From: a phage
Direction: 5' to 3' (one strand)
Sequence record: OZ346212.1
Length of the DNA: 64,000 nt
Made by a program: the position numbers and the translations under genes. Numbering within the stretch: position 1 is the first letter of the stretch; each line of letters begins with the position of its first letter. Of the stretch, positions 7,966-63,955 are shown in pieces. The notes beneath the pieces were generated by a model, which saw nothing but the letters and a program-made list of their open reading frames with translations, made no database searches and was not told the origin of the DNA.

Positions 7966-8331
7966 ATGGAACAAATGAACGATCAAGCGTCGGTTGCGAT
8001 GAACGAGCAAGAACAACCTCAAGAATTTTTCTTAGGGTTAAGTAAAGATCAAGTGTCTCTTCTGCTAGTGCTTTCTTCTTTCATGGGAAGACTTCAGGAG
8101 CTCACACAACAGCCAGAGGCTGAACAATTATTCCAAGCTTTGCGTGAAGAAGAAAAATATCGTCGTTTGGACTATGCCTTAGGTTGGGTAGCTCAACAAC
8201 GAGATATGCTGATGGCCCTCTCTGGGACCACAAGTTTTGCAATGGGGCTGTTGGCTCAAGTTCAGGACAAATTAATTCAAGCAGGGTTTGCACACACGGC
8301 AAACACTAACGAAGAACAAGGAGACAAATAA
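7966..8331 (+). CDS. hypothetical protein
   Basis: ORF track; RBS TCGGAGA. Confidence 0.5.
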   Translation: MEQMNDQASVAMNEQEQPQEFFLGLSKDQVSLLLVLSSFMGRLQELTQQPEAEQLFQALREEEKYRRLDYALGWVAQQRDMLMALSGTTSFAMGLLAQVQDKLIQAGFAHTANTNEEQGDK

Positions 8332-9557
8332 TGAGCGTTATTCAACAATTCGCTAACCCGATGAATCCGCGTGAAACTGTTTTACTGGCTCACGGCATGA
8401 TTAAACGTGTCAGCATCAAGCCTATCAAAGGTGCTGATCCTACAACAGGTATTAAAACCACTGTGTGGCAAGGTAAGAAAATTGAATCCAGCCACACCAT
8501 CTCTTTACTGATTTCTGAACTGGATTCCTCTGATAACCTGCTTCAAGGTGGTGAAGAAGTTTGGATCAGCATGGGTGATAAGCTGCTTAAACCTGGTCAT
8601 CAAGACTCTGTCTCTGTTAAAATTGATGACAAGTGGGAAACCGTAACGCCGGGATGGATCGTAAATATTCCTTTGAAGGCAAACGAGCATAACGGTAAGA
8701 CCTATTACAAAGGCTCACTGGCTAAGATGGTCAAGCTGGGTGCAGGAGAGGCTCCAGCAGCGACTCAGCAGCAAAAACAGCAACAAGGTGCACAATCACA
8801 AGGCCAGAAGCAGAAACCTCAGCAGAATGCCAATCAGGACGTTTTACGCATCTATGGTGATGTGACTCAGATTGTTGGCAACGTGGTTACTGTTAATGAC
8901 CACAAGATTGGCGAAGGTGCTATGGTTGTAACTGATGAGCAGCTTAAAGACCTGGTGGTAGGTGGTCGTGTTGCAGCCATTGTTGACAAAGACACCGGAA
9001 ACATTATCAGTGGTTTCAAGGCCTATCCTCCTAAGGCAGAGAACGGCACTCAAGGCTCTGGTGGCAAGCGTAAATCCTCTTACGACCCTATCGGTGTGGA
9101 AACGGGGCATAGCATCAATGCGTTGCAGATCATCCTGGATCGCGGGTTTAAGGTAGACGACCCACTGGGCGTGGCTAAAACACTGCACGTAGTCACCATT
9201 GAGCTTAAGAAAGAGTATGCTCAAGCCACCAACCGAGCTGAAGATGAAGTAGGTGCCAGTGTCGGTAATGCGGTGTTGAACGCTTGTCGCCGTATTGACA
9301 AGAAAACGAAAGTTGATGATTTTGCAGTGGCAATTACTGCAGAAGCAAAAGATGTCTTGACTAATCTAGCTGAGCCGTTGTACGATTGGATCAAGAACGG
9401 TGCTGAGTCCACTGACCATCAAGAACCTCAGGCTGCCAAACAGGAAGCAGCTCCACAGCAAAACACTGTAGACGCTCCTCCTGTAAATGATGCGGAAGAT
9501 GACCCAATGGATCAGAATCCAGCACAGTACGTCTTTGATGATGACATCCCATTTTAA
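8331..9557 (+). CDS. ssb: single-stranded DNA-binding protein
   Basis: C-terminal DDDIPF identical to the bacterial SSB acidic tip; Q/G-rich linker; RBS AAGGAGA. Confidence 0.75.
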   Translation: MSVIQQFANPMNPRETVLLAHGMIKRVSIKPIKGADPTTGIKTTVWQGKKIESSHTISLLISELDSSDNLLQGGEEVWISMGDKLLKPGHQDSVSVKIDDKWETVTPGWIVNIPLKANEHNGKTYYKGSLAKMVKLGAGEAPAATQQQKQQQGAQSQGQKQKPQQNANQDVLRIYGDVTQIVGNVVTVNDHKIGEGAMVVTDEQLKDLVVGGRVAAIVDKDTGNIISGFKAYPPKAENGTQGSGGKRKSSYDPIGVETGHSINALQIILDRGFKVDDPLGVAKTLHVVTIELKKEYAQATNRAEDEVGASVGNAVLNACRRIDKKTKVDDFAVAITAEAKDVLTNLAEPLYDWIKNGAESTDHQEPQAAKQEAAPQQNTVDAPPVNDAEDDPMDQNPAQYVFDDDIPF

Positions 9558-9619
9558 CATTTAGTTAACATAGCCCTGCCAGAAAGGGTGGGGTATTTTT
9601 GTATAAGGAGATCTAAAAA

Positions 9620-10036
9620 ATGACATTAGAAGATATCATTGTTAAACCTGAGAACTATGACCAATACAACCTGTCAACTCAATCTGTAGACCTTGGATGC
9701 GCCACGGTCAGTGCGTGGCTGGTTAACGGAAAAGAGCTGGATAAATGCTTAGAAGCTCACATGTCTATTAACAAGTTTCTGGATGAAAATACTCACTGGC
9801 TTGAGGGTGCAGGAGTATATGCTTCATGGTTGGAAAGTATGGGATTCGACTACCAATCTGAAGAAGGGTGGTGGAGCTATTTAGCTATCTGCCCAGAGAC
9901 GCTGCAATGCTTCATGAAATATTCTGAAGATTTGGAGTACCGGGCGGTGGTTGATAGTGCTATTGCCCGTTATAGCCGTAAACCTTTTTCCCACGACATT
10001 AAAACTGTGGAAGAGTTTGTTGAAGTTTTCTGTTGA
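9620..10036 (+). CDS. hypothetical protein
   Basis: ORF track; RBS TAAGGAGA. Confidence 0.5.
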   Translation: MTLEDIIVKPENYDQYNLSTQSVDLGCATVSAWLVNGKELDKCLEAHMSINKFLDENTHWLEGAGVYASWLESMGFDYQSEEGWWSYLAICPETLQCFMKYSEDLEYRAVVDSAIARYSRKPFSHDIKTVEEFVEVFC

Positions 10037-10132
10037 CACAGGTGGAAAGGTGTGCAATTATAACTTCATAGAACGGGAGGACGTGATGAACGAAGAAAAC
10101 TGGGATGTATAACTAACAGGAGGCCACTGCCC

Positions 10133-10330
10133 ATGATTTATCGAATCCGTGTAAGAGAAGATGCACCAGGCTGTTACTTTGACTGGCGTGGGTGGTGGTT
10201 TCTCCACCCAATGGATGGACTCACAGATAGAATGCTGGATGCTGCCCTTTATACAGATACCGACATAGAATATAATCTCTATCTGAAGGACGGTATAGAT
10301 AACGGCCTGTTTGAAGCAATTCCTGTGTAA
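10133..10330 (+). CDS. hypothetical protein
   Basis: ORF track; RBS ACAGGAGG. Confidence 0.45.
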   Translation: MIYRIRVREDAPGCYFDWRGWWFLHPMDGLTDRMLDAALYTDTDIEYNLYLKDGIDNGLFEAIPV

Positions 10331-10398
10331 GAGACTGTAATAGCTATGTTTTATGATCTTCCTGTAGCACCACCACCTGTTGAACCCGGAGAACTAAG

Positions 10399-10824
10399 AT
10401 GATCTATGAAATGCCAAAACTGATTCGTGACGATGCCCAAAACGCCCACACCTTTATCATGGGCAAGCGCATGGATATTATTTGTCATAAAGATTTCTGG
10501 GAAGGTAGTTACTTCACAGAATATTTTGGTAAACTGGATAATGGTCTGCTGATCCAGTTCTACACCGATGCGGAAAACAATATCTGCTGGGAGTTCGAAA
10601 CTGAAGATATCCATAAACTTTTCACCTTCCTAGGTATTAAGGTTGAGGCCAAGTTTGAAGAAGGCGAGTGCGACGATTGTGGATTCTACGAGGTAACAGA
10701 TTTCTATCTCCCAAGTGGTGAGAACCTTTACTATGAAAGCCACTTCGGCAACTCAAATATGCCACAAGGTTGGGATGAGTTTTTTGAAATTGCGGAAGAG
10801 GAGCTGACATACCGTGATTATTGA
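10399..10824 (+). CDS. hypothetical protein
   Basis: ORF track; RBS CCGGAGA. Confidence 0.5.
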   Translation: MIYEMPKLIRDDAQNAHTFIMGKRMDIICHKDFWEGSYFTEYFGKLDNGLLIQFYTDAENNICWEFETEDIHKLFTFLGIKVEAKFEEGECDDCGFYEVTDFYLPSGENLYYESHFGNSNMPQGWDEFFEIAEEELTYRDY

Positions 10825-11272
10825 TACTGTAGCGGGAGATTTAATCTCCCTTTTTAAGAGCGGTGCTGGTCACCTGATCCACGGTTGTAACTGCTTTCAT
10901 ACAATGGGTGCAGGCATAGCGAAAGATATTGCCCGTGAGTTCCCTCAAGCACTGGCAGCCGACAAAGAGACTGCCTATGGTAATCTGGACAAGCTGGGTA
11001 TGTTTTCTTGTTGGGAGCATTTTGCCAAGAACAGGGTCGTATATGGAATCAACCTGTATACCCAGTTCTACCCAGGGCCCAATGCTGAATACTTCTCAAT
11101 AATGAAAGGTTTTGAGCGAGTCAACGAGGTATTCAAAGGTGTGTCATTGCCGTTCTACATTCCTAAAATTGGATGCGGTATTGGCGGTCTAAAGTGGGAA
11201 CATGTAGAAGATGTAATTAATCTTGCAACCACAGATATTGATGTGGTTGTAGTAGAGTACAAAAAGTGTTGA
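10814..11272 (+). CDS. macrodomain (ADP-ribose binding/processing) protein
   Basis: HGCNCFHTMGAGIAKDI resembles the macro-domain N..N / GxG(V/I) ADP-ribose pocket; GTG start. Confidence 0.6.
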   Translation: MIIDTVAGDLISLFKSGAGHLIHGCNCFHTMGAGIAKDIAREFPQALAADKETAYGNLDKLGMFSCWEHFAKNRVVYGINLYTQFYPGPNAEYFSIMKGFERVNEVFKGVSLPFYIPKIGCGIGGLKWEHVEDVINLATTDIDVVVVEYKKC

Positions 11273-11296
11273 CGACCATCTTCTGAGGTGATATAG
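11268..11296 (+). promoter_or_regulatory. sigma70-like promoter (TTGACG-N17-TATAGT)
   Basis: Read from sequence. Confidence 0.5.
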
Positions 11297-11523
11297 TTTC
11301 CACAACAACTAAGAGAGGAGAGCACTGTGGAGACTAAAATCTTAATTCTTGCTGTGGTAGATACAACCGAAGGAGCTATATTCGAATCTGCAGGGGGGTA
11401 TTTCTACCTACCATACGGAAAAAGAACTTCCGAGCCAAGTAAAGATTCAATCCTCAAGGTGTTCCCGTGTGCTTTCTGGCTGGAGATTTTGGTATAAGAT
11501 TGCAGAGGATTTGGGAGAGAATT

Positions 11524-11718
11524 ATGAGAAACAAGAAAGAGCTTTACTCTGGTGAGTGGATCAACGATCAACAGGTGGGAGAGGTAACCTGCTTCCGATG
11601 TTTTACCAGGTACAATCTTAAAACTGCACCAAAAAGTGTTCCAAAGACTGACGGTTATTACATAAAAGAACCTCATTGCCCAAAATGTAAATGCCGATTA
11701 TACTGGAGTAACCTGTAA
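11524..11718 (+). CDS. zinc-ribbon protein
   Basis: CFRC...CPKC; start moved to ATG 11524 after RBS GGGAGAG. Confidence 0.45.
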   Translation: MRNKKELYSGEWINDQQVGEVTCFRCFTRYNLKTAPKSVPKTDGYYIKEPHCPKCKCRLYWSNL

Positions 11719-11723
11719 AAGAT

Positions 11724-11751
11724 TGACATCTGAAAACTGCAGTGTATAATA
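11724..11751 (+). promoter_or_regulatory. sigma70-like promoter (TTGACA-N16-TATAAT)
   Basis: Read from sequence. Confidence 0.55.
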
Positions 11752-11781
11752 TATGCATAAACTAACAGAGAGTGATGTATT

Positions 11782-11973
11782 ATGGTAATTTTTAACCGGG
11801 ATGGTATCATAGTTAGACAGCACCCGTTCCTTGAATACTATCAAATTGAGCAATGGTGCTACGGGGATTGCAGTCACTCCTATGGGCAAAGTTGGGGATA
11901 TCGTACAGTTTTTGAATCCACAGACCTTGACAAAGTAAAACAGAAAGTTTTAGAACTTCTTAACAACAAGTGA
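11782..11973 (+). CDS. hypothetical protein
   Basis: ORF track. Confidence 0.4.
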   Translation: MVIFNRDGIIVRQHPFLEYYQIEQWCYGDCSHSYGQSWGYRTVFESTDLDKVKQKVLELLNNK

Positions 11974-11983
11974 GTATCGTGCC

Positions 11984-12316
11984 ATGGTAACATTGGAAAG
12001 ACGTAAAGCTATTGCCGCCACACTGGCAGACATCTTTTGGGATTGTAATTTAAAATCTACCCGAAATTGTGGTGCATCTGTAGATGTATTATTCCCACGG
12101 CCTACTATTGTTGCAATGGGCAACCTGCTCGATGTGGTATATGGAGCATGGGACAAGGAAGGTGGATTCTATATCTGGCAACCTGACTACGGGACTTGGA
12201 AAGAGGTTAGTGGTTCTTCGGACTTCACTCCTGCAGTGGCTAAAATGGATGGCTGGAAAATCTATGTCGGTAACGACATGGAACTGAAAGGCGAAATTGT
12301 TTACTGGTTACCTTAA
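11984..12316 (+). CDS. hypothetical protein
   Basis: ORF track. Confidence 0.45.
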   Translation: MVTLERRKAIAATLADIFWDCNLKSTRNCGASVDVLFPRPTIVAMGNLLDVVYGAWDKEGGFYIWQPDYGTWKEVSGSSDFTPAVAKMDGWKIYVGNDMELKGEIVYWLP

Positions 12317-12337
12317 GAAAGTCCAGGAGATAAAGTT

Positions 12338-12583
12338 ATGAACAAAGGGTGGACATTTGTAGACGGCGTTAAAAACATGCCTCTAGGAAAGTATATTGTA
12401 GCCATGGCAGATGAGAATGGCAAGGTTGATTTCGGAGTTTGCGAGGTTGTTCTTGCAGGATCTGGTGACTATGCTCACAAAACTGGGATAATTAACGGTC
12501 ATTTCTACTTTGATTACAACCCTGTTGTGGCGTATATGGCTATGCCAGAGTTCGAGCTCCCAAAGGAAGGTGCAGATGTTTAA
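12338..12583 (+). CDS. hypothetical protein
   Basis: ORF track; RBS CAGGAGA. Confidence 0.45.
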   Translation: MNKGWTFVDGVKNMPLGKYIVAMADENGKVDFGVCEVVLAGSGDYAHKTGIINGHFYFDYNPVVAYMAMPEFELPKEGADV

Positions 12584-12773
12584 GCTTAAATCTGCATGGA
12601 ACATCGCTGTGGGGGACGAGATCCGTATCCCAGGTGGAAAGACCATTATGAAAATATCTCGTATCGAGTACGAAGGTGATCGTGTATTTCATATCTTTGC
12701 AGAAGATGGTCGAGAGATTTATATACAGGTAGGATCTCACATCTATATTCGTAAGAAAGGGGAGGACAAATGA
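12576..12773 (+). CDS. hypothetical protein
   Basis: Start moved to ATG 12576 after RBS AAGGAAGG. Confidence 0.4.
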   Translation: MFKLKSAWNIAVGDEIRIPGGKTIMKISRIEYEGDRVFHIFAEDGREIYIQVGSHIYIRKKGEDK

Positions 12774-13099
12774 CAGAGATCATCATTTCAACTGCAGGGT
12801 ATGTATTCCTGACAATCATTGCACTGGCTATTTTGGTGACAGTGTATGGGTTTGTTATCCTTCCTATCCTTGAGACATTTAGTTTGTGTCGGTGTTGGAG
12901 AAAAGCTTACGGTCCACAACCATGGAAGGACTGGCCCCACCTGGTGCGCTTAGCGTTCTCTTATGCTTACGATCACTCCAGTAGTGCATGCATAACCGGA
13001 TACCACGCCCACAACTGGAGCTGGGAAGGGTTGAGGAAATGGAATGTTACAAAGACCATACCTCTGCGCATGTACAAACCTAAAAACAAAGACAACTGA
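12770..13099 (+). CDS. membrane protein
   Basis: N-terminal hydrophobic helix; RBS GGGGAGGA. Confidence 0.45.
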   Translation: MTEIIISTAGYVFLTIIALAILVTVYGFVILPILETFSLCRCWRKAYGPQPWKDWPHLVRLAFSYAYDHSSSACITGYHAHNWSWEGLRKWNVTKTIPLRMYKPKNKDN

Positions 13100-13705
13100 T
13101 ACTTGAAAATTCCTGGCATATCAAGTATAAGGGGGATTTCTAAAATGGATTTCCTCCTTTTGATATTTCACCGGGCTGGATATTTTAAAATTCTTAGAAA
13201 ATCAGAAAATGGATCGAAAACTAAAATGGATTTTTCAGAGTAGGCGCGACAAGCTGAATAACTCATCCTATCGTTTGCACCATATTCCAGGCCACCATTA
13301 TAGATTTCCCACACATGCTAACCTCTCCCTACTAGAACTTCCTCCACTTACCCTTGACCTTCTATGGTAACAATCTAACCGCTATCTTGAAGTTGCGGTG
13401 CAGCTTTCCAGGTACTCGATCTACTTTTCATTTCAGGGCTTGGATTTTCTGAAAATTTTTCTCGATAAATTTCTCAGTACTCGATCTGTTTTTCGTTTTC
13501 TGAATCGGATTTTCTGGAAATCGTTCCGGCTCTCAACCTGAAATTTTTGGGGACGAAATCGATTTTTCGTTTTCAGAAATGGATTTTTAAAATTTCTATA
13601 TGGGAATATTTTAGTGGATACTGTTTTATAGGAAATTGTTACGGAGGGTAATTAGCATGCTAATTAAATTTATTAAATGCGAGGAGTTCTCATTTAGAAT
13701 TTTGA
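13100..13705. repeat. AT-rich non-coding region with reiterated TGGATTTT-type motifs and ~50-bp direct repeats
   Basis: No credible ORF; motif at ~13147, 13181, 13230, 13440, 13510, 13590; direct repeats at ~13407 and ~13475. Confidence 0.6.
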
Positions 13706-14280
13706 ATGATAATCATTCTCGTTTGCAGAATAACGGGCAGGCCCGGTGATTGTCTCCCGGCCCCTGTTGCCCCGGCTTGTTATTATAGTATCACACAGGA
13801 CAAAGAAAGCAAGGACTTTTTGCATAAATTTTTAAATGATAATGATAACCGTTCTCATTTTATGCAGCGCCCATCCCCGGTGGTTGTCTCCCCCGTCACC
13901 GGTGCCTGCCGTCCTTTCGATATGTATATTGTGCCACCTGGCGGGGCCGCTGTCAACACTTTTCAAAAAATTTTTCTAACCTGGTGCGCTAACCGTTGCA
14001 ACCTGGCGGGGCCAGCCTGGCAGGACCTAACTGACCAGGTAGGGGAGAATGAAGGCTTGTAAACCTGGTGGGCCTATGCTACAGGATAGGTAACAATTGA
14101 AGAGGAGGTACAAAAATGATATGATCCCCCTGGAAAATGTAGCTATTAATGACTCTGAGGCTATCGCCCTGGTTGAAAAGGCTATGGCGGGAGCGTTGGA
14201 ACATAAAGAAGAGTACGAAAATGGTGGTTAACCTGGCGGGGGCGGCAGGTGGATTCTATCATAAAAATAATTTAAAATAG
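13706..14280. repeat. GC-rich repeat family (AACCTGGCGGGGCC) and duplicated ~60-bp segments
   Basis: Motif at ~13936, 14000, 14229 (also 20056); segments 13700-13790 and 13830-13920 share TGATAAT...CCGGTG(A/G)TTGTCTCCC. Confidence 0.55.
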
Positions 14281-57523: not shown

Positions 57524-58285
57524 TTAAAGTTCCATAAAGTTTTCTACAGTTTCAATAAATGCTTTATCAGAGAAAGCGTCAACAGCACCGTTAAACCATA
57601 CAGGGATCCCGCGATCCTCATATTGATAAAGGTCGCTACGTGAAATGCCACTCCCATCTGCACTCTGCGAGTCATACTTGTTTACAATCAGCAGTTTTGT
57701 GCCTTTACAAGTAGCAGGAAACAATTCCCAGTTAAAATTAATAACTGTGTTAGAACAACCTACTAGGATCACCATATCATTGCTTGTGAGAGATGTCAAC
57801 AGGTCATACATGTCTGTATACTTAGGAGCAACCTCACCGAAGAACACTACATTGGGCTTAACCCAGGTATACTTGCCTGTATCTACCTCCGTGTATCCGA
57901 TATTTTTAATTACATCATTACCTTCAGCATCTTCGTAGGTGATTTCAGGCAAATACCCGTGGACATGTAAAATATCTTCATGTTTTACACCAGCACGCTC
58001 CAGCAAATCATCTACATTGGTGGTAAGGTTGATCACACGACCAGACCAGCGGGAATACCACTCAGCGATCCGAAGATGTGCAAGGTTAGGATCAACACTG
58101 CCCAGAGCTACACGACGTGCATTGTAAAAGTCATGCACCTTATAGTAGTTCTTGGCAAAGGTGTGGATGTTGCACACCTCATCGATGCTGAAATTCTCCC
58201 ACATTGCAGTGCTACCAGATCGGAAAGTGGGAATACCAGATTCAGCGCTCAAACCAGCACCGGAGATAATAATCAGTCGTCGCAT
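57524..58285 (-). CDS. Sir2-family (sirtuin-like) NAD-dependent protein
   Basis: N-terminal GAGLSAESGIPTFRSGSTAMW matches sirtuin GAGIS..SGIP.FR. Confidence 0.75.
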   Translation of the reverse strand: MRRLIIISGAGLSAESGIPTFRSGSTAMWENFSIDEVCNIHTFAKNYYKVHDFYNARRVALGSVDPNLAHLRIAEWYSRWSGRVINLTTNVDDLLERAGVKHEDILHVHGYLPEITYEDAEGNDVIKNIGYTEVDTGKYTWVKPNVVFFGEVAPKYTDMYDLLTSLTSNDMVILVGCSNTVINFNWELFPATCKGTKLLIVNKYDSQSADGSGISRSDLYQYEDRGIPVWFNGAVDAFSDKAFIETVENFMEL

Positions 58286-58293
58286 AAGTGTCC

Positions 58294-58644
58294 TCAGTAG
58301 ATGTTTTGTTTAATCTCTATTCCAAACTTCTTGAATGAGTCAGCAGCAAGCATAAATTTACGAGCTGCCGATGGATTAGAAGTATGCACGAAAATAATCA
58401 CGTTGTCAATAAGTGGTGGCTTTCCGAATACAAGTTTCTCCTCTAGCGCAGAGAAGCAGTCGTACCCTTCAAGCACTTCACCTAGATCATTGTCAAAATA
58501 CCACTCAGATACGCGTCTGTAGAGCTTTCTCTTATCATTAAGAAAATCCATAAACTCAGAAGAATTCTTTAGCCACAGAGCGTCTGGGAGTCCATAATCT
58601 GACGGATCTCTAAAATCATCAAGCCACACAATCCACTTCTTCAT
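58294..58644 (-). CDS. hypothetical protein
   Basis: ORF track. Confidence 0.5.
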   Translation of the reverse strand: MKKWIVWLDDFRDPSDYGLPDALWLKNSSEFMDFLNDKRKLYRRVSEWYFDNDLGEVLEGYDCFSALEEKLVFGKPPLIDNVIIFVHTSNPSAARKFMLAADSFKKFGIEIKQNIY

Positions 58645-59576
58645 TGCATATAGTCCTCGTTGTGGAAATAGTAGTCCAGTATCTCACGACGCTCCTGCTC
58701 TAATAAGCAATTCCACACATCTTCTGTATAGTTGCTACGAATAAATTTTACCATACCGTAAAACTCTTCGTCAACACGTTTAAAGATATCATCATCCCAA
58801 ATCTTCCAAGCTTTACCCCTCATTACTGCCTTCCGTGCCAGATAGTATGGAGACTTGATCTTCAGCTGCAGATCATAAGGGTAGTAAGGCTTACGAATCA
58901 TATACCCTTCACCTCTTGTTTCTGCAGCTAATTCTTTTGCATAGCTGAACGGAATTTCACGCACAGTGTTAGGACGTTTTGCACCAAGGTATTTGGCAAT
59001 CCCATCTAAAGCTGCTTCTGGTAGCATTATTCCAGAATCATTATATCTGCAACCTATCAAATATGCGCCATGGTCTTCTTGAACAATATGCGGATCTGAA
59101 GGGTGACAAATTTCAAACATGAATGTCATGTTTTCATTGCCCATAACCTTCTTGATAAGATCTAAATTACCACATTGCTCTTGGATGGTTTCCTTTGCAA
59201 GGTTACAATATGGAGAATCAAGAGACCCGGTTGTTGAGAACAATAGGTCACCTTTATGAGATGATACCACACCAAGGAATCCGTTCTTTTTCTCTACCGC
59301 AGTCACAAGCTTATTGTCAGGCAGGTTGGTGGAGTTTTCTCCCAAGTTAAACACTTTTGTGAAGGGCCATGCCACAACATTTCCTTCATTACCTACAACA
59401 ATGCCTCGGCACTCCAGTAAACGAGGGGACAAATGCCATAAATTGTTGTAAAATACTTTTCTAGCATATTTATAGATCTTTAACCCGAGATCTGGGTAAT
59501 ACCTACTGGTTACAAGACCTTTGTCAACTAGGTCGTCTGCATTAAAATACTTCATTATATGTTCCTCATTTGTCAT
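58641..59576 (-). CDS. RNA ligase (nucleotidyltransferase superfamily)
   Basis: Motif I VEKKNGF (KxNG), motif IV EGYMIRK, motif V LKIKSPYY; alternative start at 59555 has the better RBS. Confidence 0.6.
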   Translation of the reverse strand: MTNEEHIMKYFNADDLVDKGLVTSRYYPDLGLKIYKYARKVFYNNLWHLSPRLLECRGIVVGNEGNVVAWPFTKVFNLGENSTNLPDNKLVTAVEKKNGFLGVVSSHKGDLLFSTTGSLDSPYCNLAKETIQEQCGNLDLIKKVMGNENMTFMFEICHPSDPHIVQEDHGAYLIGCRYNDSGIMLPEAALDGIAKYLGAKRPNTVREIPFSYAKELAAETRGEGYMIRKPYYPYDLQLKIKSPYYLARKAVMRGKAWKIWDDDIFKRVDEEFYGMVKFIRSNYTEDVWNCLLEQERREILDYYFHNEDYMQ

Positions 59577-63584: not shown

Positions 63585-63659
63585 GCCCTGTTAGCTTAGT
63601 GGATAAAGCAGCGGCCTTCTAAGCCGTTGACACTGGTTCGAGTCCAGTACGGGGTGCCA
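63585..63659 (+). tRNA. tRNA-Arg (anticodon TCT)
   Basis: Cloverleaf folded by hand: acceptor GCCCTGT/ACGGGGT, D-stem GCTT/AAGC, anticodon loop CTTCTAA, T-loop TTCGAGT, encoded CCA. Confidence 0.8.
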
Positions 63660-63663
63660 AATT

Positions 63664-63750
63664 GGGGAGTTATCCCGTAGAGGTAGCGGTGTAGACTGTA
63701 AATCTATTGTCATTGCGACTCGGGTGGTTCGACTCCACCACTCCCCACCA
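63664..63750 (+). tRNA. tRNA-Tyr (anticodon GTA)
   Basis: Acceptor GGGGAGT/ACTCCCC, anticodon loop CTGTAAA, long variable arm, T-loop TTCGACT, encoded CCA. Confidence 0.8.
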
Positions 63751-63864
63751 AATTTATATTTTTAGATGCATAAATAATACAGATAATGGCATTGATATTT
63801 ATCGTCGTTTATACTAGTCACTAACTGCTCGAAAATCAGTGTCATTATCAGTATTATTTATAAA

Positions 63865-63955
63865 GGAGGGTAGGGAGCAATGGTGCTCAATCGGTCTTGA
63901 AAACCGTCCCGTTGAGGATGACTCGATGATGGTTCGATTCCATTACTCTCCGCCA
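63865..63955 (+). tRNA. tRNA-Ser (anticodon TGA)
   Basis: Acceptor GGAGGGT/ACTCTCC, anticodon loop CTTGAAA, long variable arm, T-loop TTCGATT, encoded CCA. Confidence 0.7.

What the first reader, a model, noticed from the sequence alone, without database searches (positions are those of the whole stretch)
10814..11272. Macrodomain protein inside the replication module: candidate ADP-ribosylation reversal / anti-defense factor
HGCNCFHTMGAGIAKDI resembles the macro-domain ADP-ribose pocket. The gene sits among replication genes, right after SSB. A phage macrodomain could strip ADP-ribose from DNA or proteins, for example countering DarT-type toxins or host ARTs. It is far from the Sir2-like gene at 57524, so the two are not an obvious operon pair.
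Basis: inference. Interest (0 to 1): 0.6.

Follow-up and report, generated by a model that had tools for sequence, protein, structure and literature searches.

The report
Phage macrodomain, likely anti-DarT2 enzyme
This is a real 152-residue macrodomain gene of an rV5-like E. coli phage and a clear relative of phage T4 Tk.4/AdfM, so it most likely strips ADP-ribose from phage DNA to defeat the bacterial DarTG2 defence; it is a further member of a recently described kind, not a new one.

Summary
The ORF at 10814..11272 (+) is real. It is the conserved "macro domain / phosphatase" gene of Vequintavirus phages; the region is 99.3% identical to Escherichia phage JLBYU08. It passes Pfam Macro and matches phrog_335 at 1e-59. 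Its AlphaFold2 model (pLDDT 97) matches TARG1, Poa1p, DarG and SCO6735.

The protein is 39% identical (E 1e-43) to T4-type Tk.4. It is 69% identical to the protein at the tk.4 locus of a Krischvirus. T4 tk.4 was named adfM in 2025, because its knockout makes T4 sensitive to DarTG2. A Lys-type macrodomain of PhiKZ, also called AdfM, removes thymidine-linked ADP-ribose from DNA in vitro.

This family does not have the catalytic Lys of TARG1 and DarG. It has an invariant Gln (Q84, motif N-x-Y-T-Q) in that position, as SCO6735 does; SCO6735 hydrolyses dT-ADP-ribose and neutralises DarT.

The gene is not immediately after the putative SSB: three small ORFs lie between them. It also has no obligate link to the phage Sir2 gene. 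Novelty: a new member of a known kind. Interest is modest.

The parts
10814..11272 (+). Macrodomain gene (152 aa, stop included); Vequintavirus orthologue of T4 tk.4/adfM
   Evidence: ORF list. Pfam Macro. phrog_335 1.4e-59. DarG models match the macro part only. AF2 pLDDT 97. Foldseek to TARG1/DarG/Poa1p/SCO6735. 39% identity to Tk.4.
10799..10804 (+). Shine-Dalgarno-like GAGGAG, 9 nt upstream of the GTG start; the start overlaps the stop of the upstream ORF, suggesting translational coupling
   Evidence: Sequence read directly.
10880..10930 (+). N26 is equivalent to DarG N22 and SCO6735 N27; H23 to SCO6735 H24 and Poa1p H23.
   Evidence: G24, N26, C27, M31, G34 and A36 are invariant and H23 nearly invariant in 105 homologues. 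Alignments to solved structures.
11051..11065 (+). N80-L-Y82-T83-Q84 motif. Q84 occupies the position of the catalytic Lys of TARG1 (K84) and DarG (K80), and of the essential Gln85 of SCO6735.
   Evidence: N80, Y82 and Q84 are invariant in 105 homologues. HMMER and MAFFT alignments place Q84 opposite TARG1/DarG 'TK' and SCO6735/BT1257 'GQ'. SCO6735 Q85A is inactive (PMC9411070).
11162..11188 (+). Loop 2 (phosphate-binding loop), P117-K-I-G120-C-G122-I-G-G125. G122 is equivalent to SCO6735 G128. TARG1's catalytic D125 is replaced by Gly.
   Evidence: P117, G120 and G122 are invariant. Alignments.
10399..10824 (+). Upstream 141-aa ORF of unknown function (phrog_8157) that overlaps the macro gene start by 11 nt. 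Probably co-transcribed; no evidence of a functional link.

Best explanation
The gene encodes a free-standing ADP-ribosyl hydrolase of the TARG1/DarG/SCO6735 (ALC1-like) class of macrodomains. It is the Vequintavirus orthologue of T4 Tk.4 (AdfM).

**Proposed mechanism.**
1. The gene is expressed together with the replication genes.
2. The protein binds ADP-ribose that host DarT2 toxins attach to thymidines of single-stranded phage DNA.
3. It cuts the ribose-base bond, so replication and packaging can continue. In effect it is an orphan antitoxin carried by the phage.

**Proposed chemistry.** It is probably of the SCO6735 type. Gln84, held by Asn26, positions the distal ribose and a water molecule does the hydrolysis. 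It is probably not the Lys-dependent chemistry of DarG or TARG1.

**What is shown here:** the fold, family membership, conservation of the pocket, and homology to Tk.4.

**What is inferred:** the substrate (dT-ADP-ribose on DNA), the target defence (DarTG2) and the expression timing.
For: **1. It is a macrodomain.**
- Pfam above its cut-off.
- AF2 pLDDT 97, pTM 0.91, with the alternating beta/alpha order of a macro fold.
- Best Foldseek matches are TARG1, Poa1p, T. aquaticus and M. tuberculosis DarG, and SCO6735, at E 7e-10 to 1e-6 and TM 0.70-0.77.
- A family profile hits BT1257, SCO6735, TARG1 and DarG at 3e-15 to 1e-13.
- The DarG models of NCBIfam and PADLOC match across the macro part.

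**2. It is orthologous to a validated anti-DarTG2 gene.**
- 39% identity to Tk.4, E 1e-43, over the full length.
- The T4 genome annotation confirms that the matched gene is tk.4.
- A Krischvirus carries a 69%-identical protein between its regB-proximal genes and tk, the position tk.4 holds in T4-type genomes.
- T4 delta-tk.4 becomes sensitive to DarTG2.
- PhiKZ AdfM removes T-ADPr from an oligonucleotide in vitro (PMC13309987).

**3. The pocket is intact and under selection.** N26, Q84, G120, G122 and others are invariant in 105 homologues that go down to 36% identity.

**4. Gln-type enzymes do this reaction.** SCO6735 has Gln85 at the Lys position, Q85A is dead, and it hydrolyses dT-ADPr and protects against DarT. 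T4 Tk.4 has the same YTQ motif.

**5. Two consistent phage cases.** T5 is DarTG2-sensitive and has no homologue; its best profile hit is 11 bits. T4 is resistant and depends on tk.4.

**6. The gene is conserved in this phage group.** 112 of 122 matching phage records carry at least 80% of the surrounding 5-kb region, and the protein matches at 80% identity or more in 119 records.
Against: - No experiment exists for the Vequintavirus protein. The only Vequintavirinae transposon screen (Bas54) was not run against DarTG2.
- The T4 result is genetic and from a preprint. Enzymatic activity of Tk.4-type (Gln) phage proteins has not been shown; the biochemistry is for the Lys-type PhiKZ protein.
- The two lysines that position DNA in SCO6735 are not conserved. 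K34 is Ala33 here, and the loop that carries K89 is five residues shorter here.
- The pocket also keeps the residues mutated in yeast Poa1p (H23, and S30 as T30). A small-molecule substrate cannot be excluded from sequence.
- Sequence identity to any solved enzyme is only 20-27%.
Confidence: 0.68

Rival explanations
1. It is a small-molecule ADP-ribose derivative hydrolase: an ADP-ribose-1''-phosphate phosphatase (Poa1p-like, the origin of the database label 'phosphatase') or an O-acetyl-ADP-ribose deacetylase. It would clear by-products of the phage's own Sir2-like enzyme or of RNA repair.
For: - Poa1p is among the best sequence and fold matches.
- The Poa1p residues H23 and S30, which are the ones mutated in the deposited structures, align with H23 and T30 here.
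- The same phage encodes a Sir2-family protein next to a cyclic-phosphate-processing receiver domain and a T4 Rnl1-like RNA ligase.
- TARG1, a top hit, is deposited as O-acetyl-ADP-ribose deacetylase 1.
Against: - The macro and Sir2 genes are 46 kb apart on opposite strands.
- Their distributions are uncoupled in the two phages checked. T5 has Sir2 (T5.102) but no homologue of this macrodomain. In T4 no Sir2 is known (from my own knowledge, not tested here), yet it keeps Tk.4.
- The only phenotype known for the family is DarTG2 sensitivity.
- The 'phosphatase' label traces to a motif annotation ('contains A1pp phosphatase motif'), not to an assay.
Confidence: 0.12
2. It is an eraser of protein or RNA ADP-ribosylation. 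It would reverse marks placed by host ADP-ribosyltransferase defences or toxins other than DarT2 (protein-, mRNA- or RNA-end-directed), or by phage transferases, and would not act on DNA.
For: - TARG1 is the top fold match.
- SCO6735 acts on both ADP-ribosylated PARP1 and DNA.
- T4-type phages that carry Tk.4 also carry the ADP-ribosyltransferases Alt and ModA.
Against: - The TARG1 Lys84/Asp125 dyad used for Glu/Asp-linked protein marks is absent; the positions are Gln84 and Gly124.
- In T4 the screen against DarTG2 gave tk.4 as the single significant hit.
- I did not search the window for an ADP-ribosyltransferase gene, so none has been identified there.
Confidence: 0.12
3. It is a non-catalytic inhibitor or sponge. 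It would bind DarT2 directly, as the inactive mutants of DarG, TARG1 and SCO6735 can, or it would sequester an ADP-ribose-containing immune signal such as His-ADPR or gcADPR.
For: - Catalytically dead SCO6735 Q85A still inhibits DarT in vitro.
- The Thoeris II effector ThsA uses a macrodomain to bind His-ADPR, so macrodomains can recognise such signals.
Against: - Strict invariance of the residues needed for catalysis in SCO6735 (N26, Q84, G122) across 105 homologues argues for an enzyme.
- The protein lacks the C-terminal DarT-binding domain of DarG; it has 152 aa and matches positions 4-144 of the 338-position model.
Confidence: 0.06

Closest known systems
T4 Tk.4 = AdfM (anti-DarT factor, macrodomain; bioRxiv 10.1101/2025.11.20.689424)
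   Same: - Same profile family: A1 scores T4 Tk.4 at 166 bits.
- 39% identity over the full length.
- Same size, about 152-155 aa.
- Same HGCNCFHTMG(A/S)G loop, the same N-L-Y-T-Q-F-x-P-G-P-N motif and the same P-(K/R)-I-G-x-G-I-G loop.
- Single-domain phage protein with no partner toxin.
   Different: - Different phage family (Vequintavirus versus Straboviridae) and different neighbours: here it follows the polymerase/SSB-like block, whereas in T4 it lies between vs and tk.
- Untested here, whereas the T4 knockout has a DarTG2 phenotype.
SCO6735 of Streptomyces coelicolor (PDB 5E3B) and BT1257 (2FG1/2AFC): orphan Gln-type ALC1-like macrodomains
   Same: - Best profile matches (3e-15 and 8e-15).
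- Gln at the catalytic-Lys position, and the equivalents of His24, Asn27 and Gly128 are conserved.
- Stand-alone gene without darT. The same is true of the closest bacterial homologue examined, from Pelagimonas.
- SCO6735 hydrolyses dT-ADPr and neutralises DarT.
   Different: - Only 22-27% identity.
- The mobile loop after the Gln is five residues shorter here.
- The DNA-positioning Lys34 and Lys89 are absent here.
- SCO6735 is a chromosomal 'guardian', not a viral counter-defence.
DarG2 antitoxin macrodomain (T. aquaticus 5M31/5M3E, M. tuberculosis 5M3I)
   Same: - Same fold (TM 0.73-0.77).
- The conserved Asn (N22 in DarG, N26 here).
- Same length of the loop after the catalytic position.
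- Same presumed substrate.
   Different: - Catalytic Lys80 is replaced by Gln84.
- No C-terminal DarT-binding domain.
- 47 bits against a 250-bit equivalog cut-off.
- No adjacent darT.
PhiKZ gp104 = AdfM of chimalliviruses (Cell Rep 2026, PMC13309987)
   Same: A phage-encoded single macrodomain that counters DarTG2. De-ADP-ribosylation of T-ADPr DNA has been shown in vitro.
   Different: - PhiKZ AdfM is of the Lys type (N23/K78) and is imported into the phage nucleus.
- The window protein is of the Gln type and belongs to a phage not known to form a nucleus (the latter from my own knowledge, not tested here).
- I did not compare the two sequences directly.
Human TARG1/OARD1 (4J5R/4J5S) and yeast Poa1p (6LFQ-6LFU)
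   Same: - Top Foldseek matches (E 7e-10 and 3e-9).
- The MGAGIA loop is identical to TARG1's.
- The H-x-C-N-C motif is shared with Poa1p.
   Different: - The TARG1 Lys84/Asp125 dyad is absent.
- Those enzymes act on protein-linked ADP-ribose, O-acyl-ADP-ribose or Appr-1''-p in eukaryotes.

Membership tests
Macro domain superfamily (Pfam PF01661) | Sequence match above the curated threshold | tested here: met
   25.9 bits against a cut-off of 22. The margin is modest, but it is backed by phrog_335 at 1.4e-59.
Macro domain superfamily (Pfam PF01661) | Three-layer alpha/beta/alpha macro fold | tested here: met
   AF2 pLDDT 97, pTM 0.91. 170 PDB chains match at E<=0.001; the top 50 are macrodomains or designed hydrolases that resemble BT1257 and TTHA0132.
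Macro domain superfamily (Pfam PF01661) | Two glycine-rich ADP-ribose/diphosphate-binding loops | tested here: met
   The N26...M31-G-A-G34 and P117-x-I-G120-x-G122-x-G-G125 loops are invariant or nearly so in 105 homologues, and they align with the loops of solved structures.
Macro domain superfamily (Pfam PF01661) | ADP-ribose binding or hydrolysis | not testable with these tools
   Needs purified protein.
ALC1-like class, Lys-type (TARG1, DarG) | Catalytic lysine (TARG1 K84, DarG K80) | tested here: not met
   Gln84 occupies this column in the window protein, in T4 Tk.4 and in all 105 homologues.
ALC1-like class, Lys-type (TARG1, DarG) | TARG1 Asp125 partner of the dyad | tested here: not met
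   TARG1 'GLDRL' aligns with 'GIGGL' here.
ALC1-like class, Gln-type (SCO6735/BT1257) | Gln at the catalytic position, held by the conserved Asn, plus the PB-loop Gly (SCO6735 Q85, N27, G128) | tested here: met
   Q84, N26 and G122 are invariant. The columns were verified with HMMER and MAFFT. The roles of the residues come from PMC9411070.
ALC1-like class, Gln-type (SCO6735/BT1257) | Extended mobile loop with Lys89, and Lys34 for DNA positioning | tested here: not met
   The loop is five residues shorter and position 34 is Ala33.
DarG antitoxin of DarTG2 (NCBIfam NF048014 equivalog) | Full-length match above the equivalog cut-off, including the C-terminal DarT-binding domain | tested here: not met
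   47.3 bits against a cut-off of 250. Only model positions 4-144 of 338 are matched, and the protein ends at residue 152. PADLOC DarG positions 9-143 of 329.
DarG antitoxin of DarTG2 (NCBIfam NF048014 equivalog) | Adjacent darT toxin gene | tested here: not met
   The ten neighbouring ORFs have no Pfam domain apart from a phage zinc-binding domain, and all fall in PHROGs of unknown function.
AdfM (phage anti-DarT factor, macrodomain; T4 Tk.4 type) | Full-length homology to T4 Tk.4 with shared pocket residues | tested here: met
   39% identity, E 1e-43. The A1 profile scores T4 Tk.4 at 166 bits. The HGCNCFHTMG and NLYTQFxPGPN motifs are shared.
AdfM (phage anti-DarT factor, macrodomain; T4 Tk.4 type) | Orthology supported by an intermediate at the tk.4 locus | tested here: met
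   Krischvirus UPWr_E1 has a 69%-identical protein at the position tk.4 holds in T4-type genomes, between the genes that follow regB and tk.
AdfM (phage anti-DarT factor, macrodomain; T4 Tk.4 type) | Required for phage growth on DarTG2-carrying hosts | not testable with these tools
   Shown for T4 and PhiKZ only. Bas54 was not screened against DarTG2.
AdfM (phage anti-DarT factor, macrodomain; T4 Tk.4 type) | Removes thymidine-linked ADP-ribose from ssDNA | not testable with these tools
   Shown for PhiKZ AdfM and SCO6735, but not for any Tk.4-type protein.
Poa1p-type ADP-ribose-1''-phosphate phosphatase | Residues equivalent to Poa1p His23 and Ser30 | tested here: inconclusive
   H23 and T30 align with them. 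However, H23 is also SCO6735 His24, a structural residue. Activity cannot be tested here.
Sirtuin-linked macrodomain operon (SirTM-type pairs) | Macrodomain and Sir2 genes adjacent and co-oriented | tested here: not met
   46 kb apart on opposite strands. T5 has the Sir2 homologue without this macrodomain.

The most novel reading that the evidence does not exclude
The Tk.4-type phage macrodomains (invariant N-x-Y-T-Q, short loop, no DNA-positioning lysines) form a mechanistically distinct, lysine-independent class of ADP-ribose erasers. Their substrate range would go beyond DarT2 marks, for example to ADP-ribosylated RNA or protein, or to ADP-ribose-based immune signals. In Vequintaviruses they might also cooperate with the phage Sir2/RNA-repair module. 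Nothing found here excludes this, because no Gln-type phage enzyme has been assayed in vitro.
Probability: 0.15. Interest if true: 0.55.

Novelty: new member of a known kind. Interest (0 to 1): 0.3.

Why it matters
If the assignment holds, rV5-like phages carry a ready-made counter to DarTG2. These phages are broad-host-range E. coli phages often considered for therapy. The assignment helps predict which hosts they can overcome.

It also extends AdfM from T-even and nucleus-forming phages to a third large phage group. Homologues were found in about 5% of phage records (2,742 of 50,697), so erasing DNA ADP-ribosylation would be a common viral strategy.

One point may interest enzymologists. The widespread phage version uses Gln instead of the catalytic Lys of DarG. 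That makes it a natural test of the water-mediated mechanism proposed for SCO6735.

Tried and rejected
- **Functional partner next door.** All ten neighbouring ORFs are unknown-function PHROGs with no informative Pfam domain. No darT and no transferase were found among them.
- **Sir2-macrodomain pairing.** I rejected an obligate pair. The two genes are 46 kb apart on opposite strands. T5 has the Sir2 homologue but no macrodomain.
- **T5.105.** It is annotated 'Sir2' and lies near T5 Sir2, so I suspected a hidden macrodomain. It is not: BLASTP gives E 9.5, and the sequence starts with a DxDGVL motif, which I read as HAD-like from my own knowledge.
- **Descent from a DarTG operon.** The one clearly chromosomal homologue examined (Pelagimonas, 40% identity) stands alone among unrelated housekeeping genes. 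This gives no support and no refutation.
- **Direct data on Vequintavirinae versus DarTG2.** None found. The literature only reports NADAR-type AdfN in Bas60-62 and a Bas54 screen without DarTG2.
- **Rfam scan of the window.** Only tRNAs were found.
- **Promoter and terminator scan.** It gave consensus-level matches only, and I drew no conclusion on transcription units from it.

Full report
**What is there.** The window carries an ORF at 10814..11272 on the + strand (152 aa). Its GTG start overlaps the stop codon of the preceding ORF 10399..10824, and a GAGGAG Shine-Dalgarno sequence precedes it. The 5-kb surroundings are 99.3% identical to Escherichia phage JLBYU08 and 96-98% identical to many other Vequintavirus (rV5-like) phages. 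112 of 122 matching records cover at least 80% of the region. In JLBYU08 the same ORF is annotated 'putative macro domain-containing protein'. RefSeq copies of related phages call it 'phosphatase'.

**Is it a macrodomain?** Yes.
- Pfam Macro scores 25.9 bits against a cut-off of 22. phrog_335 matches at 1.4e-59.
- The DarG models of NCBIfam (1.7e-12) and PADLOC (1.4e-13) match over their macro part only.
- I aligned 105 homologues (36-95% identity) from a protein search. AlphaFold2 on that alignment gave pLDDT 97 and pTM 0.91.
- Foldseek against the PDB returned TARG1, Poa1p, the T. aquaticus and M. tuberculosis DarG macrodomains, the T. africanus DarTG fusion, BT1257 and SCO6735. Probabilities were 1.00 and TM-scores 0.70-0.77.
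- A profile of the family hits BT1257 (2.7e-15), SCO6735 (8e-15), TARG1 and M. tuberculosis DarG (about 1e-13), and Poa1p (4e-12).
- The protein therefore belongs to the ALC1-like (TARG1/DarG/SCO6735/Poa1p) class of macrodomains.

**The pocket.**
- In the 105-sequence alignment the invariant residues are G24, N26, C27, M31, G34, A36, D50, N80, Y82, Q84, P117, G120 and G122.
- HMMER alignments and an independent MAFFT alignment agree on the catalytic position. Q84 sits in the column of TARG1 Lys84 and DarG Lys80 ('T-K'), and of Gln85 in SCO6735 and BT1257 ('G-Q').
- TARG1's second catalytic residue, Asp125, is Gly here.
- The SCO6735 paper (PMC9411070) shows that Q85A abolishes activity. It also shows that Asn27 holds Gln85 in place and that G128E reduces activity. 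The enzyme removes thymidine-linked ADP-ribose from DNA and protects Streptomyces from DarT.
- The window protein has all three equivalents (N26, Q84, G122). It lacks SCO6735's Lys34 (Ala33 here) and its five-residue-longer loop with Lys89.
- It is therefore a mixture: the Gln of SCO6735, the short loop of DarG and TARG1, and the MGAGIA loop of TARG1.

**Link to a tested phage gene.**
- A tblastn search found homologues in 2,742 of 50,697 phage records. They include T-even phages, where the match lies next to the vs gene.
- In RB18 and T4 that gene is tk.4, annotated 'contains A1pp phosphatase motif'. The window protein is 39% identical to Tk.4 over the full length (E 1e-43). It shares the HGCNCFHTMG and NLYTQFxPGPN motifs.
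- In the Krischvirus UPWr_E1, the gene between the regB-proximal genes and tk (the position tk.4 holds in T4-type genomes) encodes a protein 69% identical to the window protein. This bridges the two groups.
- A 2025 preprint (10.1101/2025.11.20.689424) screened a T4 transposon library on a DarTG2 host. It found tk.4 as the single significant hit. A clean knockout was sensitised to DarTG2, and the gene was named adfM.
- Independently, a macrodomain of PhiKZ and other chimalliviruses was also named AdfM. It was shown to remove T-ADPr from an oligonucleotide and to be needed on DarTG2 hosts. That protein is of the Lys type, N23/K78 (PMC13309987).

**Most likely function.** The window gene is most likely the Vequintavirus AdfM. 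It would be an orphan antitoxin-like hydrolase that removes DarT2-placed ADP-ribose from thymidines of single-stranded phage DNA. The chemistry is probably the lysine-independent one proposed for SCO6735.
- Shown here: the fold, the family, the conserved pocket, and homology to Tk.4.
- Inferred: the substrate, the target system and the expression timing.
- Two consistent cases: T5 is DarTG2-sensitive and has no homologue in its whole genome, with a best profile hit of 11 bits. T4 is resistant and depends on tk.4.

**What remains open.**
- No experiment addresses the Vequintavirus protein. The Bas54 (Vequintavirinae) transposon screen was not run on DarTG2, and I found no DarTG2 plating data for this subfamily.
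- Enzymatic activity has not been shown for any Gln-type phage protein.
- The pocket also retains the residues that were mutated in yeast Poa1p, H23 and S30/T30. The old 'phosphatase' idea therefore cannot be excluded from sequence.

**The Sir2 question.** The Sir2 gene at 57524..58285 (minus strand) is real (Pfam SIR2, 98 bits). It lies beside a cyclic-phosphate-processing receiver domain and a T4 Rnl1-like RNA ligase. It is 46 kb from the macro gene and on the other strand. T5 carries a Sir2 homologue without this macrodomain. I therefore see no obligate pairing, although a by-product link through O-acetyl-ADP-ribose stays possible.

**Context.**
- The neighbours of the macro gene are small ORFs of unknown function. 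The '408-aa SSB' upstream has no Pfam hit and is separated from the macro gene by three ORFs.
- A chromosomal bacterial homologue from Pelagimonas stands alone without darT.

**Verdict.** The gene is an untested new member of a kind described in 2025-2026. Interest is modest, at 0.3. The main open point is the Gln-type mechanism and its substrate range.

Noticed in passing
window 13100-14280: About 1.2 kb without convincing ORFs, containing iteron-like direct repeats. Three copies of a 47-57-nt unit are spaced 65 and 74 nt apart (13402-13587). A pair of about 33-nt units is spaced 136 nt apart (13692/13828), with CCCGGTGnTTGTCTCCC at 13742/13876. ACCTGGCGGGGCC occurs three times (13932, 13997, 14227). 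There is no Rfam hit. It could be an origin or a regulatory region.
   Followed up: partly
window 57524-59576 (minus strand): Three adjacent genes look like an RNA-repair or NAD-linked module: a Sir2-family gene (57524..58285), a cREC_REC 'cyclic-phosphate processing receiver' domain gene (58294..58644) and a T4 Rnl1-like RNA ligase (58641..59576). The Sir2 protein has homologues of about 46-57% identity in T5-like phages.
   Followed up: partly
window 10834-10850: A terminator-like hairpin, GGGAGATTTAATCTCCC followed by TTTTT, lies inside the macro ORF about 20 nt after its start codon. The Murica GenBank record lists a 'terminator' feature under the same gene (H21). Whether it attenuates transcription into the gene is unknown.
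   Followed up: no
phage records matching window 8000-13000: Sixteen records named 'Campylobacter phage' (for example C5, C15, A12a) are about 96.5% identical to this E. coli Vequintavirus region and carry no annotation. The host labels look doubtful.
   Followed up: no
Vibrio phage Thalassa NC_042095.1 107989-108399 (hit H57): In this phage the macrodomain homologue lies next to a ribose-phosphate pyrophosphokinase gene. This hints that some homologues sit with NAD/ADP-ribose salvage genes.
   Followed up: no
window 63585-63955: A cluster of three tRNA genes at the end of the window: Arg-TCT, Tyr-GTA and Ser-TGA.
   Followed up: no
window 11524-11718: A small ORF two genes downstream of the macro gene has a Pfam 'Phage zinc binding domain' (PF23903, 8e-23). 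It is the only annotated domain among the ten neighbours.
   Followed up: no
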